Assembly (NCBI GenBank): GCA_007376385.1
Contig: VMGC01000002.1
Location: forward strand, 136,372 to 200,371
DNA from: Parcubacteria group bacterium Gr01-1014_8
Lineage (GTDB): Bacteria; Patescibacteriota; Minisyncoccia; Phycocordibacterales; UBA2100
DNA: 64,000 nucleotides
Direction: 5' to 3'
The notes beneath the pieces are model-generated. The model made no database searches. It saw only the letters and a program-made list of their open reading frames with translations, and was not told the origin of the DNA. Shown here piece after piece: positions 2,082 to 63,863 of the stretch; the first letter of the stretch is position 1; each line of letters starts with the position of its first letter. Both the position numbers and the translations under genes were made by a program.

Positions 2082-3029
2082 ATGAACAGAAACCTAGCGC
2101 TTGAATTTGTGCGAGTGACCGAGGCTGCGGCATACGCTGCAGCGAAGTGGGTCGGGAAAGGCGACAAAATTGCTGCGGATGGTGCGGCGGTAGACGCGAT
2201 GCGAGAGCGTTTCAACGAGATAGAGTTCAGCGGGACCATCGTCATTGGCGAGGGAAGCAAGGACGAGGCGCCAGAATTATATACAGGCGAAAAAGTAGGG
2301 AAAGGCAAAGGGCCGGTGATGGACCTTGCGGTGGACCCATTGGAGTGCACCGACAGCGTTGCCTTTGGACGCTTCAATGCTCTAAGCGTTATTTCAGCAG
2401 GAGCTAAGGGAAGCCTTCTTTCAGCGCCTGATACCTATATGGAAAAGATCGCTGCAGGCCCCGGCGCGGGTAAAGTAATCGATATAGATGCACCTGTCGC
2501 AACAAATATTAAAAAGGTGGCAAAGGCGCTCGGGAAGGATGTCGGGGAGATCACCGTGGTGATTTTAGACAGGGACAGGCATATCGAACTCATCAATGAT
2601 GTTCGGAAGGCAGGAGCGCGTGTTCGATTGATAACAGATGGAGATGTGGCAGGAGGTATTGCGCCGTGCATGCCAGAGAGCGGCATTGACCTATTGATGG
2701 GCATTGGCGCTTCCGCCGAGGCGGTGCTCGCGGCGACTGCGATAAAGATTATGGGGGGAGAGCTTCTCTGCCGGTTCAAACCAAAAGACGAGAAACATGC
2801 GAAATTGGTTTCGGATCACGGGCACACCACGAAGAGGATATTCAAGACGAGCGACCTCGCCAAGGGGAACGAGCTAACGTTCACCGCGACCGGTGTTATT
2901 GACGGGCCGCTTCTCCAAGGAGTGAGGATTCTAAGGGACATCGCGATAACACATTCCCTCGTCATACAGGGCGTCTCGGGGACACTTCGCTACATAACGA
3001 CCCATCACAAACTCCCTGCGTATAAATAG
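2082..3029 (+). CDS. glpX: Fructose-1,6-bisphosphatase class II (GlpX family)
   Basis: N-terminus LALEFVRVTEAAAYAAAKWVGKGDKIAADGAAVDAMR is a typical GlpX signature; approximately 315 aa. Confidence 0.85.
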   Translation: MNRNLALEFVRVTEAAAYAAAKWVGKGDKIAADGAAVDAMRERFNEIEFSGTIVIGEGSKDEAPELYTGEKVGKGKGPVMDLAVDPLECTDSVAFGRFNALSVISAGAKGSLLSAPDTYMEKIAAGPGAGKVIDIDAPVATNIKKVAKALGKDVGEITVVILDRDRHIELINDVRKAGARVRLITDGDVAGGIAPCMPESGIDLLMGIGASAEAVLAATAIKIMGGELLCRFKPKDEKHAKLVSDHGHTTKRIFKTSDLAKGNELTFTATGVIDGPLLQGVRILRDIAITHSLVIQGVSGTLRYITTHHKLPAYK

Positions 3030-4925: not shown

Positions 4926-7151
4926 ATGAGGCATATATTCTTAATCGTGCTTGCTGTCGCTTTTGCTGTATCTCTTGCAGCTTCAGTTTTTACGTTGATG
5001 CAAGTGAACAAAGAGACAGATGAGTTGTCGAAGAAGCTCAGGGAGAGGACGCTGCTTCTTGCGGATGGTCTTGCAGAGTCCGCGGCTCCTGCGTACGCGC
5101 GATATGCCACGAGTACGCTGGAAAAGTTGGCGAACACCTTTACGAATCGCGAGCGTCTCATCGGCCTTGCATTTTATGACACGCGCGGTAATAAAATTGC
5201 CGGTTCGAGCGGCGTCACAGATGAAATGCTGAAAAATGCGCCGATTCTCGATACATTCAATAGCACCGAGCCTGACGACGCTTTTGCAATTACCGAAGGG
5301 ACGAGAAAATATTATTTCGCGCAACCACTCCACTCTGACGATGCCTATATTGGCTCGCTTGTACTTGTGCAGGATGCCAGTGATATCGATGTGGCAATGA
5401 GCAGGATATGGCGAGACACATTTCTGAAACTTTTCGTATATTTTCTCCTTTTTGCCGTCGCCATCGCAGCCCTTGTCTACTTTGTGCTTTTCAAACCGCT
5501 ATCGAATTTAGCTGAATCTATCCGCCAGGCGCGAATGAATAAAGATGCGCGTGCTCCTCAACCCTCGCACCACAATTTTTTTCTGCAACCTCTTGCGATG
5601 GAAGTCTCGAAACTTGCGTCTTCACTCGCGCAGGCACGAACTGCTGCAAGCGAAGAGGCGCGTATGCGCCTTGAAAAGATTGACACCCCTTGGACGGAGG
5701 AGAGGCTAAAGGAATTCATAAAGGCGTATCTCAAGGATAGGCCTATCTATGTCGTTTCGAATCGAGAGCCCTACATACACTCCAAGGATCGCGGAGAGGT
5801 CACCTACTCGGTGCCTGCGAGCGGCATGGTGACAGCGCTTGAGTCTGTCATGGCGGCCTGCGGAGGGGAATGGCTCGCTCATGGCAGCGGAAATGCTGAC
5901 AAAGAAATGGTCGATGCGGAGAGCAAGATCCGTGTCCCACCAGATGAGCCGAAATATACCTTGAAGCGTATTTGGCTGAATCCAAAAGAGGTCAAGGGCT
6001 ATTATGTCGGTTTCTCGAACGAGGCTCTGTGGCCGCTGTGTCATATAGCGCATACGAGGCCGACCTTCAGAAAGGAAGACTGGCTGATGTACAAGCGCGT
6101 GAACGGCAAGTTTGCTGAGGCGCTTCTTGCGGAATTAAAAGGCGTCGAGCGCCCCATAGTGTTGATACAAGATTTTCATCTTTCTCTTTTGCCGCGGATG
6201 ATAAAGGAGTCGCGTCCGGACGCACAGGTCGGTCTTTTTTGGCACATACCCTGGCCGTCCGCAGAAGGCTTCAGTATCTGTCCTTGGAGAAAAGAGATAC
6301 TGCAGGGAATGCTCGGCGCGGATATAATCGGTTTTCATACGCAGCAGTTCTGCAATAATTTCCTCGAAACTGTCGGAAAAGAGATCGAATCGCTTATCGA
6401 TCTGGAGCAATTTGCTGTTACGAGCGATGAGCACACATCATTCATCAAGCCATTTCCTATAAGTATTTCGTTCACTGACGCAATGGAGGGAAAGACGTCG
6501 ATAGCGCCTGATCGCGCTGCTCTTGAAGCGATGGACATTCGAACAGAGTTCGTCGGACTTGGCGTGGACAGGCTCGACTATACGAAGGGAATTCTTGAGC
6601 GATTCAGAGGGATCGAATTTTTTCTTGACGCTCATCCGGATTTTTATAAACGATTTACGTTCTTGCAGGTCGCACCTCCGAGCCGCGAGGAATCGGAAAA
6701 GTATCGGGATTATGCAGTTGCCGTCGAGGCAGAAGCAGCCCGAGTGAATGCAAAATTCAGAAAGAATGGATGGCAGCCCATTCGTTTTGAAAAAAGGCAT
6801 TTTTCGCACTCGGAACTTGTGCCGCTCTACCAAACAGCGAACTTTTGTCTTGTGACATCTCTGCACGACGGCATGAACTTGGTCGCCAAAGAATACGTGG
6901 CAGCAAGAGATGATGAAGCAGGAGCCCTCATCTTGAGCAAATTCACCGGCGCTTCTCGCGATTTCAATCGCGGTGCGCTTATCGTCAATCCCTATAGCGC
7001 CGAAGAGGTCTCGGAAGCTATCCACCGTGCTCTCGTCATGCCCGCCACTGAGCAGCATCGTAGAATGAGATCCATGCGAACATCAATACGAGACTACAAT
7101 GTGTATCGCTGGGCGGCTGAATTTATAAAAGCAGTTGCAGCGCTCCGATAA
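4926..7151 (+). CDS. otsA: Trehalose-6-phosphate synthase (GT20, OtsA) fused to an N-terminal 2-TM periplasmic sensor-like domain with a HAMP-like linker
   Basis: GT20 core (PIYVVSNREPY, FSNEALWPLCH, HDGMNLVAKEY); N-terminal 250 aa has TM1 (aa 4-24), an approximately 140-aa extracytoplasmic segment and TM2 (aa 168-190). Confidence 0.8.
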   Translation: MRHIFLIVLAVAFAVSLAASVFTLMQVNKETDELSKKLRERTLLLADGLAESAAPAYARYATSTLEKLANTFTNRERLIGLAFYDTRGNKIAGSSGVTDEMLKNAPILDTFNSTEPDDAFAITEGTRKYYFAQPLHSDDAYIGSLVLVQDASDIDVAMSRIWRDTFLKLFVYFLLFAVAIAALVYFVLFKPLSNLAESIRQARMNKDARAPQPSHHNFFLQPLAMEVSKLASSLAQARTAASEEARMRLEKIDTPWTEERLKEFIKAYLKDRPIYVVSNREPYIHSKDRGEVTYSVPASGMVTALESVMAACGGEWLAHGSGNADKEMVDAESKIRVPPDEPKYTLKRIWLNPKEVKGYYVGFSNEALWPLCHIAHTRPTFRKEDWLMYKRVNGKFAEALLAELKGVERPIVLIQDFHLSLLPRMIKESRPDAQVGLFWHIPWPSAEGFSICPWRKEILQGMLGADIIGFHTQQFCNNFLETVGKEIESLIDLEQFAVTSDEHTSFIKPFPISISFTDAMEGKTSIAPDRAALEAMDIRTEFVGLGVDRLDYTKGILERFRGIEFFLDAHPDFYKRFTFLQVAPPSREESEKYRDYAVAVEAEAARVNAKFRKNGWQPIRFEKRHFSHSELVPLYQTANFCLVTSLHDGMNLVAKEYVAARDDEAGALILSKFTGASRDFNRGALIVNPYSAEEVSEAIHRALVMPATEQHRRMRSMRTSIRDYNVYRWAAEFIKAVAALR

Positions 7152-22251: not shown

Positions 22252-22317
22252 TTTATTTCCGAGCCGAGGAGCAAACACAGGTTCAATACCTCGGAGCTTG
22301 CTCCGAAGAACCTTTAT
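22252..22317. repeat. Dispersed palindromic repeat, copy 2 (orientation opposite to copies 1 and 4)
   Basis: ATTTCCGAGCCGAGGAGCAAACACAGGTTCAATACCTCGGAGCTTGCTCCGAAGAACCTTTAT. Confidence 0.6.
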
Positions 22318-22891
22318 CTTTGCGAGGGCGAATAAATACAAATATATCATTCGCCGAGTAGGTGTCATCGGAATTTGCTCGAAGCTCGAGTTGACGTTGT
22401 CCCGGAAGAAGAAATCGCATGGGACCAGCGATAGAAGAAAGTCCAAAAACATGAGACGTATGGGCGCTGACTGGAATAGCTTGCATACCAAGTACCAGGT
22501 GTTCGCCAGGAGGTTGATTACGATATTGGATACGAAGCAATGGGCCTACTTGAGGTGGACATAATTCGAGCCCATGTGCCACAGCAATTTCACAAATATA
22601 TTTGTAGAGTCCCGTGCCATGCTTTATTTTGTCGTAATCGAAACCCAGGCTTCGTGCTGACAGTGTCACTAATTCTACTTCTCTGCTTTTTGGCGCGTCT
22701 TGAAATGATGCGGTTTCAAGGAGTTGATGCGCGTCTTGAGTGATGTAACATCCAGCATCATTGAGCTTCTTCCGGAAAGACGATGCGGATTCCGAATGGG
22801 CAGGAAGCATGAGGCGCATGAGAACTGGCAATTTCTCTATTGATGTATCAGCATGAGCCGTATCCGTATTGGACTTGGGATAGTTTTTCAT
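22283..22891 (-). CDS. Hypothetical protein; its 3' end runs into repeat copy 2
   Basis: ORF only. Confidence 0.4.
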   Translation of the reverse strand: MKNYPKSNTDTAHADTSIEKLPVLMRLMLPAHSESASSFRKKLNDAGCYITQDAHQLLETASFQDAPKSREVELVTLSARSLGFDYDKIKHGTGLYKYICEIAVAHGLELCPPQVGPLLRIQYRNQPPGEHLVLGMQAIPVSAHTSHVFGLSSIAGPMRFLLPGQRQLELRANSDDTYSANDIFVFIRPRKDKGSSEQAPRY

Positions 22892-23008
22892 TGTGCAAGT
22901 GTAAAGCTCCGTATACTTCGTGTCGACTGCCAGTTATGCTGAGACAGGACGTTGCGCTGGTTTCAACTTGATATATACTTCATTTTTAATGCTCCAACAT
23001 CTCATCGA

Positions 23009-23045
23009 CCCCAGTACCACAAGCCCTTCGGGCTTGGCTACGGGG
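23009..23045 (+). ncRNA. Conserved 37-nt leader hairpin motif (CCCCAGUACCACAAGCCCUUCGGGCUUGGCUACGGGG) in the pyrB 5' region; a paralogous copy lies in the uvrA leader
   Basis: 7-bp stem CAAGCCC/GGGCUUG with a UUCG tetraloop; compensatory C:G to U:A change in the copy at 53093. Confidence 0.5.
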
Positions 23046-23104
23046 CGAGGTTCATTGCATGAATATACTTGCGCGGGCGTGCAGTCCGTGGAGAAAATAA
23101 TGTT

Positions 23105-24016
23105 ATGCAACATCTGATCGAAACCCAGCAGTTCGATAGAGAAGCTCTTAGCAAATTGTTTGCGCTTGCGACCACTCTTGAGGGGAAGCGCGAAGAATCA
23201 CTCAAAGGCAAGATACTTGCCTCTCTTTTTTACGCACCGTCCACTCGAACGCGGCTTTCATTCGAATCAGCGATGATGCGGCTCGGAGGCAATGTTCTTT
23301 CGATGGAAAATGCAAGCGAATCATCGTCGGCAACAAAAGGCGAGACAATCGAAGACACGATACGCATCGTGGATGATTATGCCGACATTATCGTCCTCAG
23401 ACACACGGAAGTCGGGACTGCGGCGAAGGCGGCAGCTGTCTCGGAAGTTCCCATTATCAATGCAGGAGATGGCATTGGACAACACCCGACGCAAGCGTTT
23501 CTCGATCTGTATACAATAGAGCGCGAAATAGGGCGCACAGACGACTTCCACATTGCATTTGTGGGTAATCTTGCGTATTACCGGACCGCGCGTTCGCTTG
23601 CGTATCTTTTGGGAAAATACAATAAAGTAAAAATGACGTTTGTTTCTGCGCCGGAGCTCCGGATGAAAGATGATGTCAAGGATTATTTGAAGGAAAAAAA
23701 TGTGCATTTTGAAGAAACGGAAGACTTGGAAAGCACGATGAAAGTAGCAGATGTGGTGTATCAAACGCGGGTAGCGGAAGAATGGATACCGAACGAGGAG
23801 GATTACAAAAAACTTCGCGACAAATACGTCATCACGCGCCCAATGACCGACGTAATGAAAGAGGGGGCCATCCTCATTCATCCTCTGCCCCGTGCCGGAG
23901 AAATAGCACCTGAAGTCGACGATTCGCCTCACGCTGTCTACTTCAAACAAGCGGGGTATGGTGTGCTTGTGCGCATGGCGCTATTGAAGCTCTTAGCCAA
24001 TGGCGAGAAGGTGTAA
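23105..24016 (+). CDS. pyrB: Aspartate carbamoyltransferase catalytic subunit
   Basis: STRTRLSFE, HPTQ, HPLPR motifs; the alternative start at 23069 has a GAGG 8 nt upstream. Confidence 0.85.
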   Translation: MQHLIETQQFDREALSKLFALATTLEGKREESLKGKILASLFYAPSTRTRLSFESAMMRLGGNVLSMENASESSSATKGETIEDTIRIVDDYADIIVLRHTEVGTAAKAAAVSEVPIINAGDGIGQHPTQAFLDLYTIEREIGRTDDFHIAFVGNLAYYRTARSLAYLLGKYNKVKMTFVSAPELRMKDDVKDYLKEKNVHFEETEDLESTMKVADVVYQTRVAEEWIPNEEDYKKLRDKYVITRPMTDVMKEGAILIHPLPRAGEIAPEVDDSPHAVYFKQAGYGVLVRMALLKLLANGEKV

Positions 24017-27820: not shown

Positions 27821-27832
27821 AATGGGTGTGAG

Positions 27833-27939
27833 TGTACCCCATGAGATAAGGACCCGCTATAGGCTATTCACAGGAAGCTACTTTTTGAAAGAAGAATTAC
27901 TCTAGCGAACGCCACCCGGTCTATCTCACGGGGTGTACC
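27833..27939. promoter_or_regulatory. Inverted pair of the TATCTCAYGGGGT(A/G)TAC motif (RC copy at 27833-27847, direct copy at 27923-27939) plus the direct repeat GGCTATTCACAG(G)AAG (27871-27889 and 27961-27977); the left copy doubles as the -10 region of the ZIP gene
   Basis: Read directly; the same motif pair is found at 52979-53085 and 60663-60768. Confidence 0.5.
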
Positions 27940-34299: not shown

Positions 34300-34947
34300 A
34301 TGCCACCCTATATGAAGTATGTTCTCACATCCCTCGTTCTACTCCTCGTTCCAGGCGTCTCGTTTGGGGCGGGGCTTGCGGCGAGTACCGATGGCATCAT
34401 CTACAGGCAGGCGAGCGTTACTGTCTCCAATAGCCTGCCTGCCGCGTCGAGTGCGGCGCAGGCAGGCGGCTCCATCAATAGCAACACAAGTTCGTCGGCA
34501 TCGAGCGGGGGAAATTCAGTAGGAAGCGGCCTGCCCGGCCAGGGTGGCTCTGTAACCACCGGAAATGCAAGCGCATCTGCTTCGACTGAAGTTACCAGCG
34601 ATGGCAGCGGTGGCAGTGTAAAAGTGAAAGTGGAGACAGACAGTGGAGATGGGAAAAAAGTCGAGGAGTATCAGAAAGACCTAAAGGCTGGGGAATCAAT
34701 TGATGTAAGCGTCGAAGCGACGTCGAAAAGCGGAGGAGGGACGTCCGAAAGCAGTGTCAAAGTAACAGCGAACGGCTCCGAGGTCGCAACGTCAAGCGCA
34801 ACGTCCACTGATGCCGCAACTCCCATGGCGGAGGCTGTCGCAATGGAAGCTTCGGCCTCGTCCAGTCTAGGTAAGATAACATTCACCAACATATTTGCAG
34901 GTATTAAGAGCGCATTCCACGGATTCTTGAACTTCTTTGGTTTCTAA
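34300..34947 (+). CDS. Secreted Ser/Gly/Thr-rich low-complexity protein with a hydrophobic C-terminus
   Basis: Signal peptide; TGNASASASTEVTSDGSGGSVKV-type repeats resembling the adjacent proteins. Confidence 0.5.
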   Translation: MPPYMKYVLTSLVLLLVPGVSFGAGLAASTDGIIYRQASVTVSNSLPAASSAAQAGGSINSNTSSSASSGGNSVGSGLPGQGGSVTTGNASASASTEVTSDGSGGSVKVKVETDSGDGKKVEEYQKDLKAGESIDVSVEATSKSGGGTSESSVKVTANGSEVATSSATSTDAATPMAEAVAMEASASSSLGKITFTNIFAGIKSAFHGFLNFFGF

Positions 34948-37524: not shown

Positions 37525-37695
37525 ACCACTCCTTCGGGGTTGGGTGAAAGTCCCAATCGGCGGTATAGCCCGCGAGTTCTTAGGGACACGATTTGGTGAG
37601 ATTCCAAAGCCGACCGTACAGTCGGGATGAAAGAAGGAAGCGAGGCACCCTTGTTGGATGCTTGCGTGGTAACCCCGATGGATCGGGGTTTTTTA
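37525..37695 (+). ncRNA. FMN riboswitch (RFN element) with a terminator expression platform (AACCCCGATGGATCGGGGTTTTTT at 37671-37694)
   Basis: GGGTGAAAGTCCCAATCGGCGGTATAGCCCGCGAG...GATTTGGTGAGATTCCAAAGCCGAC...AGTCGGGATGAAAGAAGG matches conserved FMN aptamer blocks; upstream of the rib operon. Confidence 0.85.
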
Positions 37696-52392: not shown

Positions 52393-52584
52393 CTACTCCC
52401 GGTCAAAGACCCACACGTACAGTACAAACCAGCCGATGATGGTCCATGCGATGGCAAGATTGGTAAATATGACGCCGCCAGCGTTCGGATGGCGCCGTAT
52501 CAAAGCCAGTATTCCGGGGAAAAAATACACGTATGTAGCCATAGCCACGTAGAGATAAACCATGAAATGCAAAAAAAGCAACAT
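52393..52584 (-). CDS. Superinfection-immunity-like small membrane protein (Imm family), paralog 1
   Basis: FFPGILALIRRHPNAGGVIFTNLAIAWTIIGWFVLYVWVF pattern. Confidence 0.6.
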   Translation of the reverse strand: MLLFLHFMVYLYVAMATYVYFFPGILALIRRHPNAGGVIFTNLAIAWTIIGWFVLYVWVFDRE

Positions 52585-52709: not shown

Positions 52710-52931
52710 CTAATTAGTACTTTGTCTGTCAAATACCCACGCGAACAAGACAAACCATCCAATGATGGTCCAGCCGATGGCGATGTTCGTAAAGAAAATA
52801 CCGCCGGGACTAGAATGGCGCAGAATGACAGCCAATATTGTGGGGAAGAAATACACGAACAACCCTCCCGCAACGTATGCGTATATCATGAGCAATTGTA
52901 ACCACAAAGTCGAAGGTATCAAATAGACCAC
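52710..52931 (-). CDS. Superinfection-immunity-like small membrane protein (Imm family), paralog 2 (GTG start)
   Basis: FFPTILAVILRHSSPGGIFFTNIAIGWTIIGWFVLFAWVF; approximately 60% identical to paralog 1. Confidence 0.6.
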   Translation of the reverse strand: MVYLIPSTLWLQLLMIYAYVAGGLFVYFFPTILAVILRHSSPGGIFFTNIAIGWTIIGWFVLFAWVFDRQSTN

Positions 52932-52978: not shown

Positions 52979-53085
52979 GTATACCCCGTGAGATAAAAAG
53001 GTCTCAAAATTATGCGGCAAGCGCACATGTACTCAAAATTCCTTTTTTTGCCTATAGTCACGGGCTATCTCATGGGGTATACTCG
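52979..53085. promoter_or_regulatory. Inverted pair of the TATCTCAYGGGGTATAC motif (RC copy at 52979-52995, direct copy at 53066-53085, which includes the TATACT -10) between the divergent Imm genes and uvrA
   Basis: Read directly; same architecture as at 27833-27939 and 60663-60768. Confidence 0.55.
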
Positions 53086-53092
53086 TCCGTGT

Positions 53093-53129
53093 CCCCGGTA
53101 CCACAAGTCCTTCGGACTTGACTACGGGG
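53093..53129 (+). ncRNA. Second copy of the 37-nt leader hairpin motif (CCCCGGUACCACAAGUCCUUCGGACUUGACUACGGGG) in the uvrA 5' UTR, followed by a second hairpin (CCCCTCG...CGAGGGG)
   Basis: Paralogous to 23009-23045 with a compensatory C:G to U:A change in the stem. Confidence 0.5.
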
Positions 53130-53173
53130 CAGGTAACCCCTCGGACAAGACGAGGGGCGAGGCTATTTGCATC

Positions 53174-55798
53174 ATGATAGAATCATCAAAAAATTCAGAA
53201 GGGCCAGGCAAGATCATCGTAAAGGGGGCGAGGACGCATAACTTAAAAAATATCAGCGTCGAGATACCTCGTAATAAAATGGTCGTCTTTACGGGGCTCT
53301 CGGGAAGCGGGAAATCGTCGCTGGCATTCGACACAATTTTTGCTGAAGGCCAGCGTAAGTACGTGGAATCGCTTTCCGCTTACGCGAGGCAGTTCTTACG
53401 TCAAATGCAAAAGCCCGATGTTGACGAGATCAGCGGTCTTTCTCCTGCCATCTCTATCGACCAAAAAAGCCGCTCAAATAATCCGCGCTCTACCGTTGCG
53501 ACGATAACGGAAATTTACGATTACCTGCGCGTACTGTACTCGCGTGTCGGACATCCCCACTGTCCCGTCTGCGGCCGAATAGTAAAAAAAATGTCGAATG
53601 AGGAAATTCTTGAGACCGTTTTGAAGGTAGTCGATGCAGCAAAAGCTTCAAAAAATGTCCCCAAGGGTAAGCACACGAAGGGAGTAACGGACGCAAAGGT
53701 ACGCATAACCGCTCCGGTTGTCGTCGGACGAAAGGGTGAATATTACCAGCTTCTGTACGACATGTTGAACAAGGGTTTTGAGAAAGTCATCATCGATGGT
53801 GAGGAGAAATCACTACGTGAGCGCATTGAGCTAAAAAAACATTTCAAGCACGATATAGATGTCGTTGTTGATGAGATATTCGTGAGCGAGTTCAAGGATG
53901 ATGCGAAAGGCTCTCGCGAACGAGCAAGTGAATCCATCGAGCGCGCGCTCCATGAAGCCGAGGGTCTCGTAAAAATAATCGATCCTGAGGGCGGTGCGCA
54001 TATCGTATCCGCAAAATTCATGTGTCCGTATGATGGCTTTTCATTTCCCGAAGTTGAACCTCGGCTTTTTTCGTTCAATTCTCCATACGGAGCCTGTCCC
54101 ACGTGCAATGGCTTAGGAACCAAATATTTTTTTGGAGATGAGCAGTGCGATACATGTCAGGGCGCACGTCTCCGAAGCGAAGCGTTGCATGTGTTTCTTG
54201 GGAGCGAAAAAAAGGAAGGCGCGCGGCAGAATATCGTGCAAGTAACAAGCATGTCTATAGCGAATGCTCGTAAATTCTTCGACGAGCTGGTATTAACGGA
54301 AAAGGAAAAAGAAATATCAAAAGTCGTCATAAAAGAAATAGTAAACCGGCTCCAATTCATGCTTGACGTCGGTATCGAATATCTGACGCTTGATAGACGG
54401 GCAAATACACTCTCTGGCGGCGAAGCGCAACGGATCCGCCTTGCTTCACAGCTTGGGAGCGGGCTTGTGGGTGCGCTCTATGTCCTCGATGAGCCGACCA
54501 TCGGTCTTCACCAAAAAGATAACGACAGGCTTATTGAGACGCTTAAACATCTCCGCGAACTGGGAAATACTGTGCTTGTCGTAGAACATGACGAGGATAC
54601 GATATTTGCCGCCGATTACATTGTTGATCTGGGACCCGGCGCCGGCACGCACGGCGGGGAAATAGTCGTAGCAGGCTGGCTTGAAGAACTCTTGACCGCC
54701 AAGACGAATAAGTCGGGCTCTAGGACCTTGGCGTATCTTCGCGACGAAACTCGGATCGAAATGCCGGAAAAACGACGTACGAACGACAAGGGAAAAATAA
54801 AAATTCGCGGAGCATCAAAATTCAATCTTGAAAAAGTGAATGTAGACGTGCCGCTTGGAAAATTAGTTGTTATCACCGGCGTTTCCGGTAGCGGGAAATC
54901 AACTTTTTTGTACGAAATCATGCATCGGAATTTACTCGCCAGATTCGATAAACGATTTCGAAATGCAAAAACCTACAACGCAGCAGAGTTTACTGGAACG
55001 GAATACCTGGGCCGTTCGATACTCATTGACCAGTCGCCGATAGGCAGGACGCCGCGCTCAAATCCCGCGACCTATACGGGGGCGTTCACGCATATTCGAG
55101 ACATGTTCGCGATGAGCGAAGAGGCGCGTGCGCGCGGATGGGGGCCAGGCAGGTTCAGTTTTAACCGCAAGGGCGGGCGATGCGAAGCGTGCGAAGGGAA
55201 CGGCATGGTCGCCGTTGAGATGCACTTTTTGCCGACGGTGTATGTCACGTGCGATGTGTGCGCAGGAAGACGTTTTATGAAGGAAACGCTTGAGGTGAAA
55301 TTCAAGAAAAAAAGCATACACGATATTTTGAAGATGACCGTCGAGGAAGCGCTTACGTTTTTTACTGACATTCCAGCCATATCAGACCGCCTTAAAACGT
55401 TGAGCAATGTTGGACTTGGTTATCTTCAATTGGGGCAGAGCGCAACGACACTCTCCGGCGGCGAAGCGCAACGCGTAAAAATAGCGTCGGAGTTGTATCG
55501 TCCGCATCAGACAAAAACGATGTACCTCTTGGACGAACCAACCGTCGGACTTCACTATGACGATGTGCAGAAGCTCATCGAAATTCTCCAACGACTCGTT
55601 GAGAGAGGGAACTCGGTAGTCGTTATCGAGCACAATCTTGACGTGTTGAAATCAGCGGATTACATCATTGATATGGGGCCGGAGGGTGGTGCTGGAGGTG
55701 GAAAAATTGTCGCGAAGGGTACGCCGGAGGAGGTATCCAAGACGGAAGGATCGCACACGGGCTACTATTTGCGGCGGGTTTTGAAAAAAAAGAAGTAG
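53174..55798 (+). CDS. uvrA: Excinuclease ABC subunit A
   Basis: Two ABC modules (GLSGSGKSSL, GVSGSGKST), LSGGEAQR signatures, Zn-finger Cys pairs. Confidence 0.9.
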   Translation: MIESSKNSEGPGKIIVKGARTHNLKNISVEIPRNKMVVFTGLSGSGKSSLAFDTIFAEGQRKYVESLSAYARQFLRQMQKPDVDEISGLSPAISIDQKSRSNNPRSTVATITEIYDYLRVLYSRVGHPHCPVCGRIVKKMSNEEILETVLKVVDAAKASKNVPKGKHTKGVTDAKVRITAPVVVGRKGEYYQLLYDMLNKGFEKVIIDGEEKSLRERIELKKHFKHDIDVVVDEIFVSEFKDDAKGSRERASESIERALHEAEGLVKIIDPEGGAHIVSAKFMCPYDGFSFPEVEPRLFSFNSPYGACPTCNGLGTKYFFGDEQCDTCQGARLRSEALHVFLGSEKKEGARQNIVQVTSMSIANARKFFDELVLTEKEKEISKVVIKEIVNRLQFMLDVGIEYLTLDRRANTLSGGEAQRIRLASQLGSGLVGALYVLDEPTIGLHQKDNDRLIETLKHLRELGNTVLVVEHDEDTIFAADYIVDLGPGAGTHGGEIVVAGWLEELLTAKTNKSGSRTLAYLRDETRIEMPEKRRTNDKGKIKIRGASKFNLEKVNVDVPLGKLVVITGVSGSGKSTFLYEIMHRNLLARFDKRFRNAKTYNAAEFTGTEYLGRSILIDQSPIGRTPRSNPATYTGAFTHIRDMFAMSEEARARGWGPGRFSFNRKGGRCEACEGNGMVAVEMHFLPTVYVTCDVCAGRRFMKETLEVKFKKKSIHDILKMTVEEALTFFTDIPAISDRLKTLSNVGLGYLQLGQSATTLSGGEAQRVKIASELYRPHQTKTMYLLDEPTVGLHYDDVQKLIEILQRLVERGNSVVVIEHNLDVLKSADYIIDMGPEGGAGGGKIVAKGTPEEVSKTEGSHTGYYLRRVLKKKK

Positions 55799-60662: not shown

Positions 60663-60768
60663 GTATACCACATGAGATAAATAATTCGCGCCGTAAATCT
60701 GTCAAAATTCATCGCAAAATCGCGTGCATTTCGAAATTGTAATGTCTTTATCTCACGGGGTATACTCG
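60663..60768. promoter_or_regulatory. Inverted pair of the TATCTCAYG(G/T)GGTATAC motif between divergent carA and uvrC (RC copy at 60663-60679; direct copy at 60749-60768 with TATACT 7 nt before the uvrC ATG)
   Basis: Read directly. Confidence 0.55.
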
Positions 60769-63787: not shown

Positions 63788-63863
63788 GGGCCCATAGCTC
63801 AGTTGGTAGAGCACCTCATTTGCAATGAGGGGGTCAGCGGTTCGAATCCGCTTGGGTCCACCA
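63788..63863 (+). tRNA. tRNA-Ala (anticodon TGC), CCA encoded
   Basis: Cloverleaf GGGCCCA/TGGGTCC acceptor stem with the G3:U70 Ala identity pair, TTTGCAA anticodon loop, GGTTCGAATCC T-arm. Confidence 0.9.

What the first reader, a model, noticed from the sequence alone, without database searches (positions are those of the whole stretch)
23009..23045. Paralogous 37-nt UUCG-hairpin leader element shared by pyrB and uvrA, with a compensatory base change
Two copies are seen: CCCCAGTACCACAAGCCCTTCGGGCTTGGCTACGGGG (23009) and CCCCGGTACCACAAGTCCTTCGGACTTGACTACGGGG (53093). The 7-bp stem CAAGYCC/GGRCTTG closes a UUCG tetraloop. The C-to-T change on the 5' side is matched by a G-to-A change on the 3' side, which is covariation that preserves pairing and so argues for selection on RNA structure. 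Both copies sit in 5' leaders just upstream of GAGG-type ribosome-binding sites. Upstream flanks are also homologous (ATCTCAT...), with the pyrB copy looking like a deletion derivative of the uvrA leader. This could be a small cis-acting stability or processing element, or a duplicated promoter-leader cassette.
Basis: seen in the sequence. Interest (0 to 1): 0.55.

Follow-up and report, generated by a model that had tools for sequence, protein, structure and literature searches.

The report
Mobile DNA hairpin element of CPR bacteria
The two 37-base hairpins are real, but they are not a private pyrB/uvrA leader: they belong to a very widespread and apparently undescribed family of small palindromic insertion elements in ultra-small CPR/Patescibacteria bacteria, which land next to, and sometimes in frame inside, essential genes.

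Summary
There are two copies (23009-23045 and 53093-53129), none expected by chance, with one compensatory C-G to T-A pair. The loop is a 3-nt TTC on a 7-bp stem, not a UUCG tetraloop. The same invariant foot (A^CCCC-R-GTA-CCA-C ... G-GC-TAC-GGGG-CARG) with a hypervariable apex occurs in more than 120 metagenome contigs and in Saccharibacteria and Kaiserbacteria MAGs. The window comes from Parcubacteria bacterium Gr01-1014_8. The evidence points to a mobile DNA hairpin. Orthologous pyrB and uvrA leaders in relatives lack it. Precise empty and filled sites exist. About ten copies sit in frame inside DnaG, LeuRS, RNase HII and other proteins. Some copies lie antisense just after stop codons. Stems are almost purely Watson-Crick, with 5 G.U against 6 A.C. 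Loops are C-TNC-G, which reads C-GNA-G (the stable DNA minihairpin) on the other strand. In 31 of 109 copies the 5' foot abuts a stub of the gene whose intact terminus lies 7-60 nt beyond the 3' end. Stub and gene differ mainly by synonymous changes (78:25), so gene ends were carried between genomes. At pyrB the stub (MLQHLI-) matches the start of the closest relative. The enzyme is unknown. An additional RNA role is not excluded.

The parts
23009..23049 (+). Element copy 1, with family boundaries CCCC...GGGGC+GAG. Foot helix 23009-12/23042-45. Bulged A at 23013. GTA/TAC at 23014-16/23039-41. Internal loop CCA 23017-19 against GC 23037-38. Apical stem 23020-26/23030-36. Loop TTC 23027-29.
   Evidence: 56.5 bits. 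Boundaries follow the empty/filled sites and the flank conservation.
22989..23008 (+). Stub: the truncated original pyrB start ATGCTCCAACATCTCATCGA (M L Q H L I D/E), which abuts the 5' foot of copy 1. Its reading frame runs on through the element to a TGA ending at 23117.
   Evidence: 13 of 14 nt identical to 23108-23121. The closest relative L134 starts pyrB with ATGCTCCAGCATTTAATAGAG (MLQHLIE) behind the same TTTTA leader.
23050..23104 (+). Spacer Y between the element and the working pyrB start. It holds a 13-codon mini-ORF (23059-23100) and the GGAG ribosome-binding site (23090-23093).
   Evidence: Read from the sequence. Spacers of 7-60 nt are typical of the family.
23105..23121 (+). Working pyrB start ATGCAACATCTGATCGA (M Q H L I E). 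This is the right-hand copy of the duplicated gene terminus. The duplication ends at the point equivalent to the insertion site (ATCGA^AACCC).
   Evidence: This start type (MQHLxE) is that of the more distant relatives L126, L127 and L133.
53093..53133 (+). Element copy 2 (CCCC...GGGGC+AGG), a bare insertion without a stub. Foot helix 53093-96/53126-29. Bulged G at 53097. GTA/TAC at 53098-100/53123-25. Internal loop CCA 53101-03 against AC 53121-22. Apical stem 53104-10/53114-20. Loop TTC 53111-13.
   Evidence: 50.9 bits. It is absent at this position in the uvrA orthologues L130-L132.
53066..53083 (+). Promoter-like module TATCTCATGGGGTATAC(T), with a TATACT -10-like hexamer 9 nt upstream of copy 2. 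A transcript started here would begin 2-3 nt before the hairpin.
   Evidence: Orthologues keep TGTGGTATACTCG. The start-site position is inferred, not measured.
53137..53157 (+). Second hairpin of the uvrA leader (CCCCTCG-GACAAGA-CGAGGGG, followed by CGAGG). It is conserved at the same place in uvrA orthologues with altered stems. It is either an older, simplified family member or a separate leader structure.
34530..34544 (-). A 15-nt mini version, CCCTGGCCGGGCAGG, which keeps the family ends CCC...GGGCAGG. It lies inside ORF 34300-34947 on the opposite strand. Tentatively related, either as a footprint or as a minimal member.
   Evidence: The identical 15-mer is found in L010 (twice) and in L094, there exactly at the GGACGGAA^CAAAAGAG site where full elements sit.

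Best explanation
The hairpin is one copy of a small (about 36-50 nt) mobile imperfect-palindrome DNA element that is widespread in CPR/Patescibacteria.

Anatomy. The element has an invariant asymmetric foot and an apical stem-loop that is free in sequence and length. The foot reads, 5' to 3': A^CCCC, one bulged purine, GTA, an internal loop CCA against GC, the apex, then TAC, GGGG and CARG. The apical stem must pair by Watson-Crick rules. Its cap is usually C-TNC-G, which is C-GNA-G on the complementary strand.

Shown. (i) It is a discrete insertion with precise empty and filled sites. (ii) It inserts after an A. (iii) It is present in one lineage and absent from the same place in close relatives. 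(iv) It survives in 5' leaders, after stop codons, in a 16S trailer, and in frame inside proteins. (v) Its 5' foot is a polar junction. In about 28% of copies the foot abuts a truncated stub of the gene whose complete terminus lies 7-60 nt beyond the 3' end. Stub and gene differ mostly at synonymous sites, so the two were coding sequences in different genomes before they were joined.

Inferred. The element folds as a single-stranded DNA hairpin and is recognised at its foot by a structure-specific enzyme. An HUH/Y1 transposase of the REP/RAYT or IS200 type, or an attC-type tyrosine recombinase, are the known precedents. The enzyme would cut at A^C and join the hairpin to an A^Y site. It would move either the hairpin alone or the hairpin with adjacent DNA (spacer plus gene terminus), often into the homologous gene of a related genome.

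In this window. At pyrB the unit [hairpin + 55-nt spacer + a new pyrB start] landed inside codon 7 of the resident pyrB, and the old start was left behind as a stub. At uvrA the bare 41-nt hairpin landed between the -10-like box and a conserved leader hairpin. Any effect on expression, such as a 5'-terminal stem-loop on the uvrA mRNA or a read-through upstream ORF coupled to pyrB, would be a consequence of the insertion and not the reason the sequence is conserved.
For: Family and breadth:
- The foot pattern with a free 19-nt apex hits a Saccharibacteria MAG (2 copies, before rpmI and rplT) and a Kaiserbacteria MAG.
These give 129 instances and 93 unique sequences.
- There are no hits in 2.9 million viral contigs.
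- The window is from Parcubacteria group bacterium Gr01-1014_8.
- Positions not fixed by the search pattern are conserved: A at -1 in 86%, G44 in 92 of 93, and after GGGGC an A (84%), a purine, then G (98%).

Structure:
- 4 of 5 apical pairs covary; 0 of 500 shuffles reach the score; slid controls drop from 97.5% paired to 35-44%.
- Rare foot variants covary as well (UCCC/GGGA, C-G to U-A, C.C to G-C).

DNA rather than RNA:
- 477 Watson-Crick pairs against 5 G.U and 6 A.C.
- 43 of 71 odd-length apices have a central C-TNC-G against 1 with C-GNA-G. GCTTCGC occurs 18 times and GCGAAGC never. On the other strand these read d(C-GNA-G)/GCGAAGC, known from the literature (my own knowledge) as exceptionally stable DNA minihairpins.

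Insertion behaviour:
- GGACGGAA^CAAAAGAGTG is empty at eight 16S-trailer sites and holds the element at paralogous sites.
- pyrB orthologues at 82-89% identity and uvrA orthologues at 84-88% identity lack it.
- In-frame copies lie within single Pfam domain alignments of DnaG (twice), HATPase_c, HGTP_anticodon and RNase_HII, and in LeuRS and a chorismate-binding enzyme.
- The right neighbour is a sense gene start 73 times and an antisense gene end 29 times.

Polar stubs:
- Left-against-right flank alignments score 30 or more in 18 of 105 copies, against 1 of 516 in mismatched controls and 0 of 105 in inverted controls.
- 31 of 109 copies have the left repeat abutting the foot. The right repeat starts within 3 nt of the ORF terminus in most of the 25 with a called gene context.
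- The target has A at -1 in 30 of 31 and C or T at +1 in 25 of 31.
- Codon differences are 78 synonymous to 25 nonsynonymous (0.76), against 0.17 expected for random substitutions, with a maximum of 0.31 in 2000 simulations.
- The same gene family is hit at different sites: TypA and LepA at three different His codons.

Window locus: the stub MLQHLI- and its leader match the start of the closest relative L134, while the working start MQHLIE is the type found in more distant relatives.
Against: - No mobilising enzyme was identified. The Y1_Tnp/RAYT-like genes found in three loci are flanked by their own, different palindromes and score below the RayT cutoff.
- There are no short target duplications or paired terminal repeats of the classical kind.
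- Near-invariance of the foot across class-level CPR lineages, together with very few decayed copies, looks more like purifying selection on each copy than like a purely selfish repeat. This leaves room for a host function.
- There is a strong bias towards the sense orientation 10-45 nt before start codons. Repeated association with the same housekeeping genes (DnaE six times, TypA four times, L20 and L24 three times each) would also fit a cis-regulatory role.
- The instance set was collected with a pattern that fixes the foot.
- Gene calls in the loci are my own crude ORF calls.
- The wobble test has few informative mismatches.
- The spacer beside a 42/42-identical repeat (L052) is not clearly homologous to the resident leader, and the model explains this only with extra assumptions.
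Confidence: 0.65

Rival explanations
1. A cis-acting RNA element of mRNA leaders. The sense-strand hairpin, with its conserved internal loop, would bind a CPR-wide protein or protect the mRNA 5' end, and so regulate stability, processing or translation of a housekeeping regulon.
For: - Strong covariation.
- 73 of 102 classified copies face a gene start, typically 10-45 nt upstream, whereas divergent starts are spread broadly.
- Recurrence before orthologous genes in different lineages.
- At uvrA a -10-like box would place the hairpin at the extreme 5' end of the transcript.
- Many downstream genes lack an obvious Shine-Dalgarno sequence between motif and ATG.
- The foot is conserved like a protein-binding site.
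Against: - Absent from the same leaders in the nearest relatives.
- In-frame copies inside protein domains.
- About 29 copies are antisense, just after stop codons, with duplicated C-termini.
- A copy sits in a 16S trailer.
- G.U is no commoner than A.C.
- Loop bias fits DNA C-GNA-G on the other strand and not an RNA tetraloop.
- No fixed-distance promoter upstream.
- No Rfam match.
- Xenologous stubs have no RNA-level explanation.
Confidence: 0.15
2. A host-maintained DNA signal rather than a selfish element. The hairpin would be a polar recombination, uptake or replication-restart site, Chi-like, uptake-sequence-like or single-strand-initiation-like, at which imported or broken DNA is joined. 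The stubs would then be scars of recombination that ended at the site.
For: - Polar junction exactly at the 5' foot, with xenologous gene ends.
- DNA-type hairpin signature.
- Extreme conservation of the foot across CPR classes and few decayed copies.
- Moderate density, with two full copies in 64 kb.
Against: - Bare insertions at empty/filled sites and in-frame insertions in proteins look like transposition and not like a fixed host signal.
- Lineage-specific presence at pyrB and uvrA.
- Tandem and nested copies (L091, L116).
- Density and placement were not tested against a whole genome.
Confidence: 0.15
3. A local, genome-specific duplication of a promoter-leader segment between uvrA and pyrB, with no wider significance.
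For: The two window copies are closer to each other than to most family members. The sequence after GGGGCGAGG is loosely similar in both (TTCATTGCATG against CTATTTGCATCATG).
Against: Hundreds of copies in other organisms next to other genes. The uvrA-side GGGGCGAGG belongs to a separate hairpin that is conserved in orthologues. The upstream ATCTCAT has a different origin in each copy.
Confidence: 0.03

Closest known systems
REP elements and their RAYT (Y1/HUH) transposases
   Same: A short (20-40 nt) imperfect palindrome with a variable hairpin and a conserved foot. The complementary strand carries GTAG just 5' of the variable hairpin (CCCC-GTAG-CC-hairpin), as REPs do. Stems are kept by compensatory change. 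The precedent mechanism is recognition of a folded single DNA strand by an HUH enzyme that cuts beside the hairpin. Y1_Tnp genes do exist in these CPR contigs.
   Different: REPs are extragenic, high-copy, species-specific and often paired as REPINs. This element is low-density, mostly single and conserved across CPR classes. It enters coding sequences in frame and drags gene termini with it. The RAYT-like genes seen here are flanked by other palindromes.
Rickettsia palindromic elements (RPE)
   Same: A small palindromic repeat in a reduced genome that inserts in frame into essential protein genes and is translated as a tolerated surface insertion. Copies are found both in genes and between them.
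   Different: RPEs are 100-150 bp, restricted to Rickettsia and unrelated in sequence. No polar junction with xenologous gene-end stubs has been described for them, to my knowledge. Here the inserted peptide is only about 13-16 residues (D-P-S-T-T ... G-Y-G-A-G).
Integron attC sites
   Same: A recombination site defined by the folded structure of one DNA strand and not by its sequence: a paired foot, an extrahelical base, an unpaired central spacer and a variable terminal structure. For attC the bottom-strand cut lies between A and C at the 5' foot (my own knowledge). The unit can move together with an adjacent gene and into loosely defined secondary sites.
   Different: The R'/R'' box consensus (RYYYAAC/GTTRRRY) is absent. 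No integrase, attI or cassette array was seen. The element is shorter than attC (57-141 nt). It sits before housekeeping genes and inside coding sequences.
IS200/IS605 ends, rolling-circle (IS91/ISCR) one-ended transposition, and MITEs
   Same: Hairpin-defined ends, insertion 3' of a short target without a target duplication, strand polarity, and (for IS91/ISCR) carriage of variable lengths of adjacent DNA from one fixed end.
   Different: There is no second end, no transposase gene, and a size of only about 40 nt. Unlike classical MITEs it has no terminal inverted repeats with flanking short duplications.
Structured RNA leader motifs (Rfam-type cis-regulatory hairpins, 5' stabiliser stem-loops)
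   Same: Located in 5' leaders, with strong covariation and a conserved internal loop.
   Different: No Rfam family matches. There is no wobble tolerance. Copies lie in coding sequence and on the antisense strand. The element is absent from orthologous leaders.

Membership tests
REP/RAYT | Imperfect palindrome of 20-40 nt with a conserved GT(A/G)G at the 5' foot of the hairpin | tested here: met
   On the complementary strand the element reads CCCC-GTAG-CC-[variable hairpin]-GTGGTAC-Y-GGGG. Unlike REPs, the GTAG is itself paired.
REP/RAYT | Cognate RAYT gene flanked by copies of the same REP | tested here: not met
   Three Y1_Tnp genes were found (L125, L066, L026). Their best NCBIfam match is RayT, at 30-58 bits against a cutoff of 80. 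The L125 and L066 genes are flanked by different perfect palindromes and no flanking inverted repeat was found at L026. None lies in the 64-kb window. The whole genome was not available.
REP/RAYT | Extragenic, tens to hundreds of copies per genome, often as inverted doublets (REPINs) | tested here: not met
   Two full copies in 64 kb. Mostly singletons. About ten in-frame intragenic copies. Inverted pairs are rare (L070, L064).
Integron attC | R''/R' boxes RYYYAAC ... GTTRRRY | tested here: not met
   The foot is CCCC...GGGG with flanks A and CARG.
Integron attC | Folded single strand with extrahelical base(s), an unpaired central spacer and a variable terminal structure | tested here: met
   A bulged purine, a CCA/GC internal loop, and an apex of 3-12 bp with free sequence.
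Integron attC | Integron integrase with attI and an array of cassettes each ending in an attC | tested here: inconclusive
   No array was seen. The three evenly spaced copies in L125 lie in three paralogous LamG-like gene ends. The loci were not searched for an integrase, and no whole genome was available.
Rickettsia palindromic elements | Sequence homology to the RPE families; 100-150 bp; Rickettsia | tested here: not met
   The element is 36-50 nt and occurs in CPR organisms. RPE features are from my own knowledge; no RPE sequence was compared directly.
Rickettsia palindromic elements | In-frame insertion in conserved protein genes, compatible with the fold | tested here: met
   Single Pfam domain alignments span the insert in DnaG, HATPase_c, HGTP_anticodon and RNase_HII.
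Classical MITE | Terminal inverted repeats with short direct target-site duplications | tested here: not met
   Empty/filled sites show no duplication beyond a 1-nt ambiguity. Where duplications occur they are long (14-58 nt), one-sided and xenologous.
Any Rfam RNA family | Match to a curated covariance model | tested here: not met
   No hit at gathering thresholds in the window. No hit with E up to 10 at copy 1. Only noise at copy 2 (serC leader, 13 bits against a cutoff of 35, on the second hairpin).
5'-terminal protective stem-loop of mRNA | Hairpin within a few nt of the transcription start | not testable with these tools
   A -10-like TATACT lies 9 nt upstream of copy 2. Across the family there is no fixed-distance -10. 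Settling this needs 5'-end mapping.

The most novel reading that the evidence does not exclude
CPR bacteria carry a phylum-wide, enzyme-driven micro-cassette system. A roughly 40-nt single-strand DNA hairpin with an invariant foot is cut at A^C and pasted after an A, either alone or together with the neighbouring spacer and gene terminus. In this way it moves promoter-leader-start or stop-end modules of essential genes between genomes and peppers proteins with in-frame D-P-S-T-T...G-Y-G-A-G loops. This would be a new class of hairpin mobile element with an unidentified recombinase. It would be a hitherto unseen route of fine-scale horizontal exchange in the most streamlined bacteria.
Probability: 0.4. 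Interest if true: 0.85.

Novelty: new variant of a known kind. Interest (0 to 1): 0.75.

Why it matters
CPR/Patescibacteria make up a large share of bacterial diversity, have about 1-Mb genomes and are thought to carry little repetitive or mobile DNA. A hairpin element with an invariant foot across class-level lineages would matter in several ways.

- It inserts into DnaG, LeuRS, TypA, LepA, DnaE leaders and the like, and it leaves stubs of foreign gene ends. That gives a ready marker of recombination and horizontal exchange in uncultured lineages.
- It would explain odd N-terminal extensions and insertions in CPR protein annotations. One example is the 908-aa UvrA call that reads through the motif.
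- It points to an undiscovered structure-specific DNA enzyme.
- For annotation pipelines it is a recurrent source of wrong start codons and spurious upstream ORFs.
- If the sense-strand copy also acts in mRNA, it would be an example of a mobile element supplying leaders to housekeeping genes.

Tried and rejected
- **Rfam.** Searched at gathering and at permissive thresholds on the window, both loci and 12 related loci. Nothing relevant was found.
- **Part of 23S/5S rRNA or a stand-alone sRNA.** I suspected this for the recurrent class GGACGGAA-motif-AGGCAAAAGAGUGU. No 23S marker sequences are present. The flank turned out to be the 16S 3' trailer, which also exists without the element.
- **Fixed-distance promoter upstream** (hairpin at +1 everywhere). 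No positional -10 signal.
- **Alternative pairing or riboswitch-like switch with downstream GUGGUA.** Enriched 6 to 0 but confined to a small subset, and better read as TGnTA-type -10 boxes in the spacer.
- **Strictly sense orientation.** Rejected by about 29 antisense copies after stop codons.
- **In-situ target duplication followed by neutral decay of one copy.** Rejected by the synonymous excess.
- **RAYT genes as the cognate enzyme.** Three were found, but with different flanking palindromes.
- **Phage origin.** No hit in the viral contigs.
- **Literature.** Five searches, including searches on sequence strings, found no description. One candidate preprint did not mention it.
- **Recombination breakpoint inside pyrB.** A sliding identity comparison against relatives could not resolve one, because all are about 75% identical.
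- **Exact UvrA look-up.** Failed because the public gene call starts upstream of the motif.
Full report
**1. The observation.**
A degenerate 28-mer with up to 3 mismatches finds only these two sites in the window, against 0.00 expected. A covariance model built later and run with filters off also finds only these two (56.5 and 50.9 bits); the next hit has E=0.28. The copies differ at four positions. Each hairpin folds better than its shuffles (-20.0 and -17.2 kcal/mol, z about -3). Two details need correction. The 7-bp stem leaves a 3-nt TTC loop, not a UUCG tetraloop. The shared ATCTCAT upstream is coincidental, as explained in sections 5 and 6.

**2. It is a member of a large family, not a two-gene paralogue.**
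Rfam has nothing. I scanned one genome per species with the foot fixed and the 19-nt apex free. This returned a Saccharibacteria MAG with two copies, before rpmI and rplT, a Kaiserbacteria MAG, and one obvious chance hit in a high-GC Hymenobacter gene. Both MAGs have a different apex from the window copies. Together these give 129 instances and 93 unique sequences. No viral contig matches. The exact PyrB and UvrA of the window belong to Parcubacteria group bacterium Gr01-1014_8, and the nearest relatives are Kaiserbacteria.

**3. Anatomy.**
The alignment of the 93 sequences shows the following, in order:
- A at -1.
- CCCC, a bulged purine, then GTA.
- An internal loop CCA.
- A closing C-G pair and an apex of 3-12 bp with a short loop.
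- GC, TAC, GGGG, C, then A, a purine, G and a pyrimidine.

Several positions are conserved although the search pattern did not fix them. A at -1 is present in 86%. The closing G is present in 92 of 93. After GGGGC come A (84%), a purine and G (98%). In the apex, 4 of 5 scored pairs covary, with 138 double-change cells. None of 500 shuffles reaches the observed score. Sliding the partners drops pairing from 97.5% to 35-44%. The foot could not be tested in that set. The model search of about 850 kb of flanking DNA found a few variant copies that covary there too: UCCC/GGGA, the closing C-G changed to U-A, and C.C plus C-G changed to G-C plus U-A.

**4. RNA or DNA?**
Three results argue that the structure is selected in DNA.
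- Among 492 apical pairs there are 477 Watson-Crick pairs, 5 G.U and 6 A.C. Wobble pairs are no better tolerated than the mismatch that would be a wobble on the other strand.
- 71 of 84 unique apices have odd length, and 43 of those 71 have a central C-TNC-G, against 1 with C-GNA-G. GCTTCGC occurs 18 times and GCGAAGC never. No apex is a centred cUUCGg. On the complementary strand these read C-GNA-G and GCGAAGC. I know these from the literature (own knowledge: Hirao and colleagues; Yoshizawa and colleagues) as exceptionally stable DNA minihairpins. UNC triloops have no comparable standing in RNA.
- The contexts, described next, are not those of a leader RNA.

**5. Contexts.**
About half of the copies have the start codon of an ORF of at least 100 aa within 5-60 nt downstream on the same strand (peak at 10-30). 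Divergent starts are spread widely. The genes are housekeeping genes of many kinds: DnaE, TypA, LepA, EF-G, L20, L24, L35, S12, GlyRS, LeuRS, GatB, SmpB, UvrA, UvrB, FolD, transketolase, epimerases, MurC, TsaD, YchF and PyrB. These were recognised from their N-termini, and a sample was confirmed by Pfam.

The element is not confined to leaders.
- About ten copies lie in frame inside genes, and single Pfam domain alignments run across the insert. This holds for DnaG (two lineages, same site, different compensated apex), HATPase_c, the class II anticodon-binding domain and RNase HII. Copies also lie in LeuRS, a chorismate-binding enzyme and three LamG-like repeats. In all of them the first C of the element is the third base of a codon, which gives D/H/Y/N-P-S-T-T.
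- About 29 of 102 classified copies have the end of a gene on the opposite strand 10-50 nt to their right.
- One class sits in a 16S rRNA 3' trailer. There the same flanks occur empty (GGACGGAA^CAAAAGAGTG, eight sites) and filled. This fixes the element's boundaries as CCCC...GGGGCAGG, with no target duplication.

No -10 box sits at a fixed distance upstream.

**6. The polar junction.**
In the antisense cases the last codons and the stop codon of the neighbouring gene are present twice, once on each side of the element. The sense cases are the mirror image. A copy of the first 5-19 codons, beginning at the ATG, abuts the 5' foot. The complete gene starts 7-60 nt beyond the 3' end.

The pattern holds up in systematic tests.
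- Left-against-right flank alignments score 30 or more in 18 of 105 copies. Mismatched controls give 1 of 516 and inverted controls 0 of 105.
- 31 of 109 copies have a left repeat that ends at the foot. In most of the 25 with a called gene context, the right repeat begins within 3 nt of the ORF terminus.
- The uninterrupted right-hand copies show the target: A at -1 in 30 of 31, C or T at +1 in 25 of 31, and often A^CAAAG.
- The two copies differ mainly by synonymous changes, 78 against 25 (0.76). Random substitutions would give 0.17, with a maximum of 0.31 in 2000 simulations. The differences include an AGC/TCA serine switch in gyrB.

A pseudogene stub decaying in place cannot produce this. 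Both copies must have evolved as coding sequence, which means in different genomes, before being joined. The same gene family is hit at different sites: three different His codons in the G1 motif of TypA and LepA. Tandem and nested copies also occur (L116, L091). So these are repeated events and not one ancestral insertion.

**7. The two window copies in this light.**
*pyrB.* The 20 nt left of copy 1 read ATGCTCCAACATCTCATCGA (M L Q H L I D/E). The working start, ATGCAACATCTGATCGA (M Q H L I E), lies 59 nt to the right of the hairpin.
- The closest relative (PyrB 89% identical, L134) has no element. It starts pyrB with ATGCTCCAGCATTTAATAGAG (MLQHLIE) behind the same TTTTA leader.
- More distant relatives (L126, L127, L133) start with MQHLxE, and they too lack the element.

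So the resident start survives as the stub, and the working start is of another type. The stub ORF runs through the hairpin and stops at 23117, overlapping the new start.

*uvrA.* Three orthologous loci with the same synteny (uvrB-murB-imm-uvrA) keep the -10-like box (TGTGGTATACTCG) and the second hairpin (ACCCC...GGGGCGRR, with altered stems). They lack the 41-nt element, which in the window sits between the two. There is no stub here, so this is a bare insertion. GenBank calls this UvrA as 908 aa, starting at ATG 53072 and reading through the hairpin.

**8. Mechanism: what is shown and what is inferred.**
Shown: discrete insertion, a target rule, lineage-specific presence, tolerance in frame, a polar 5' junction, xenologous gene termini, and a DNA-type hairpin signature.

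Inferred: a structure-specific enzyme recognises the folded foot on single-stranded DNA, cuts at A^C and joins to A^Y. The transferred unit is either the hairpin alone or the hairpin plus the DNA to its right, up to a second cut or crossover inside the neighbouring gene. When such a unit enters the homologous gene of a relative at the equivalent site, the result is [resident terminus stub][hairpin][spacer][imported terminus][rest of gene]. That is the arrangement observed.

Known precedents are HUH/Y1 enzymes on REP or IS200 hairpins, one-ended rolling-circle transposition, and attC recombination on a folded bottom strand with a cut between A and C. This comparison rests on my own knowledge of those systems. 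No enzyme was identified here. Three RAYT-like Y1 genes turned up in the loci, but two are flanked by other palindromes and none by this element.

**9. What remains against a purely selfish reading.**
The foot is nearly invariant across CPR classes. Decayed copies are rare. The sense orientation just upstream of start codons is strongly preferred, and the same gene families recur. A secondary role in mRNA, or a host-beneficial DNA role, is therefore open. I give the RNA-leader view 0.15 and a host DNA-signal view 0.15.

There are also caveats about the data.
- The instance set was gathered with a fixed-foot pattern.
- My gene calls in the loci are simple ORF rules.
- Whole genomes were not available, so copy number and replication-strand bias are untested.

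**10. Comparison with known systems and novelty.**
The element works most like REP/RAYT elements and, in its in-frame insertions, like Rickettsia palindromic elements. Its fold recalls attC. It fails defining tests for each, as set out in the membership table. Five literature searches and one paper check found no description of it. The library is incomplete, so this is not proof of novelty. I rate it a new variant of a known kind, namely small palindromic mobile elements. It has one unusual property, the carriage of gene termini between genomes, which could justify a stronger label if the mechanism is confirmed.

Noticed in passing
window 27832-27848(-), 27922-27938(+), 52979-52995(-), 53066-53082(+), 60663-60679(-), 60749-60765(+): Three back-to-back pairs of a 17-nt motif, TATCTCAYGGGGTATAC, about 85-90 nt apart (0.08 matches expected by chance). 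They are probably bidirectional promoter or operator modules. The one at 53066 supplies the -10-like TATACT of uvrA. uvrA orthologues keep TGTGGTATACTCG.
   Followed up: partly
window 53137-53157 (+); L130, L131, L132 upstream of uvrA: A second hairpin in the uvrA leader (CCCCTCG...CGAGGGG, then CGAGG) is conserved in position in three orthologous loci, with different and still-pairing stems. Its ends mimic the family foot (ACCCC...GGGGCGRR). It may be an old, simplified copy or an independent uvrA leader structure.
   Followed up: partly
window 34530-34544 (-); L010 (two sites); L094:6677-6691: The exact 15-mer CCCTGGCCGGGCAGG occurs four times in 857 kb. In L094 it sits precisely at the GGACGGAA^CAAAAGAG site that elsewhere holds the full element. 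In the window it lies inside ORF 34300-34947, on the opposite strand. It could be an excision footprint or a minimal family member.
   Followed up: partly
L042:1-1260; L094:610-2700: These CPR 16S genes carry a group I intron after AAGUCGU; the L042 stretch after the 16S also encodes a LAGLIDADG-like ORF. Their 3' tails read GUGGAAUCAUUCAAAAA, with no CCUCC anti-Shine-Dalgarno (read by eye). Many motif-bearing genes in the loci also lack an obvious SD.
   Followed up: partly
L125:1034-1693; L066:3862-4578; L026:4364-5047: Y1_Tnp (IS200-like) genes whose best NCBIfam match is the REP-associated tyrosine transposase, though below its cutoff. The L125 and L066 genes are each flanked by their own perfect palindrome (GCCAAGGGCGCCCCTTGGCA; AATGTCAAGAT..ATCTTGACATT). 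So HUH-type hairpin systems do exist in these CPR genomes.
   Followed up: partly
window 53072-55798 (+): The public annotation of this MAG calls UvrA as 908 aa, starting at ATG 53072 and translating through the hairpin. The conserved UvrA N-terminus starts at ATG 53174. The element is a likely source of wrong start calls.
   Followed up: yes
window 22283-22891 (-): A 202-aa ORF with no Pfam hit lies between the ECF-riboflavin S component and pyrB. In relatives L126 and L133 the gene before pyrB runs almost straight into it. The pyrB upstream region has therefore been remodelled in this lineage.
   Followed up: partly
window 52396-52563 (-) and 52722-52889 (-): Two paralogous small genes, 66% identical over 56 aa, lie upstream of uvrA. 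The genes at the same position in relatives carry the Imm_superinfect family. The copy number there varies from 0 to 2 among relatives.
   Followed up: no
window 37526-37642 (+); 63788-63863 (+): An FMN riboswitch (104 bits) and a tRNA-Ala(TGC) at the window's end.
   Followed up: no
L125:854-897, 1832-1875, 2653-2696 (+): Three copies, two of them with GTATCAC instead of GTACCAC, are inserted in frame between Y and N of the LamG-type motif (L/V)R(F/I)Y^NRALS in three repeated gene ends. This is a clean example of insertion at TA^CAAC.
   Followed up: partly
L004:4992-5030 and 5273-5311 (-); L005; L040; L042; L110: One unusual apex (ACTTCGACAAGCTCAGT, a 4-bp stem with an 11-nt loop containing AGCT) is identical in a Saccharibacteria MAG, a Kaiserbacteria MAG and several aquifer contigs, in different genomic contexts. 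This suggests recent spread between distant lineages or a special function of this variant.
   Followed up: no
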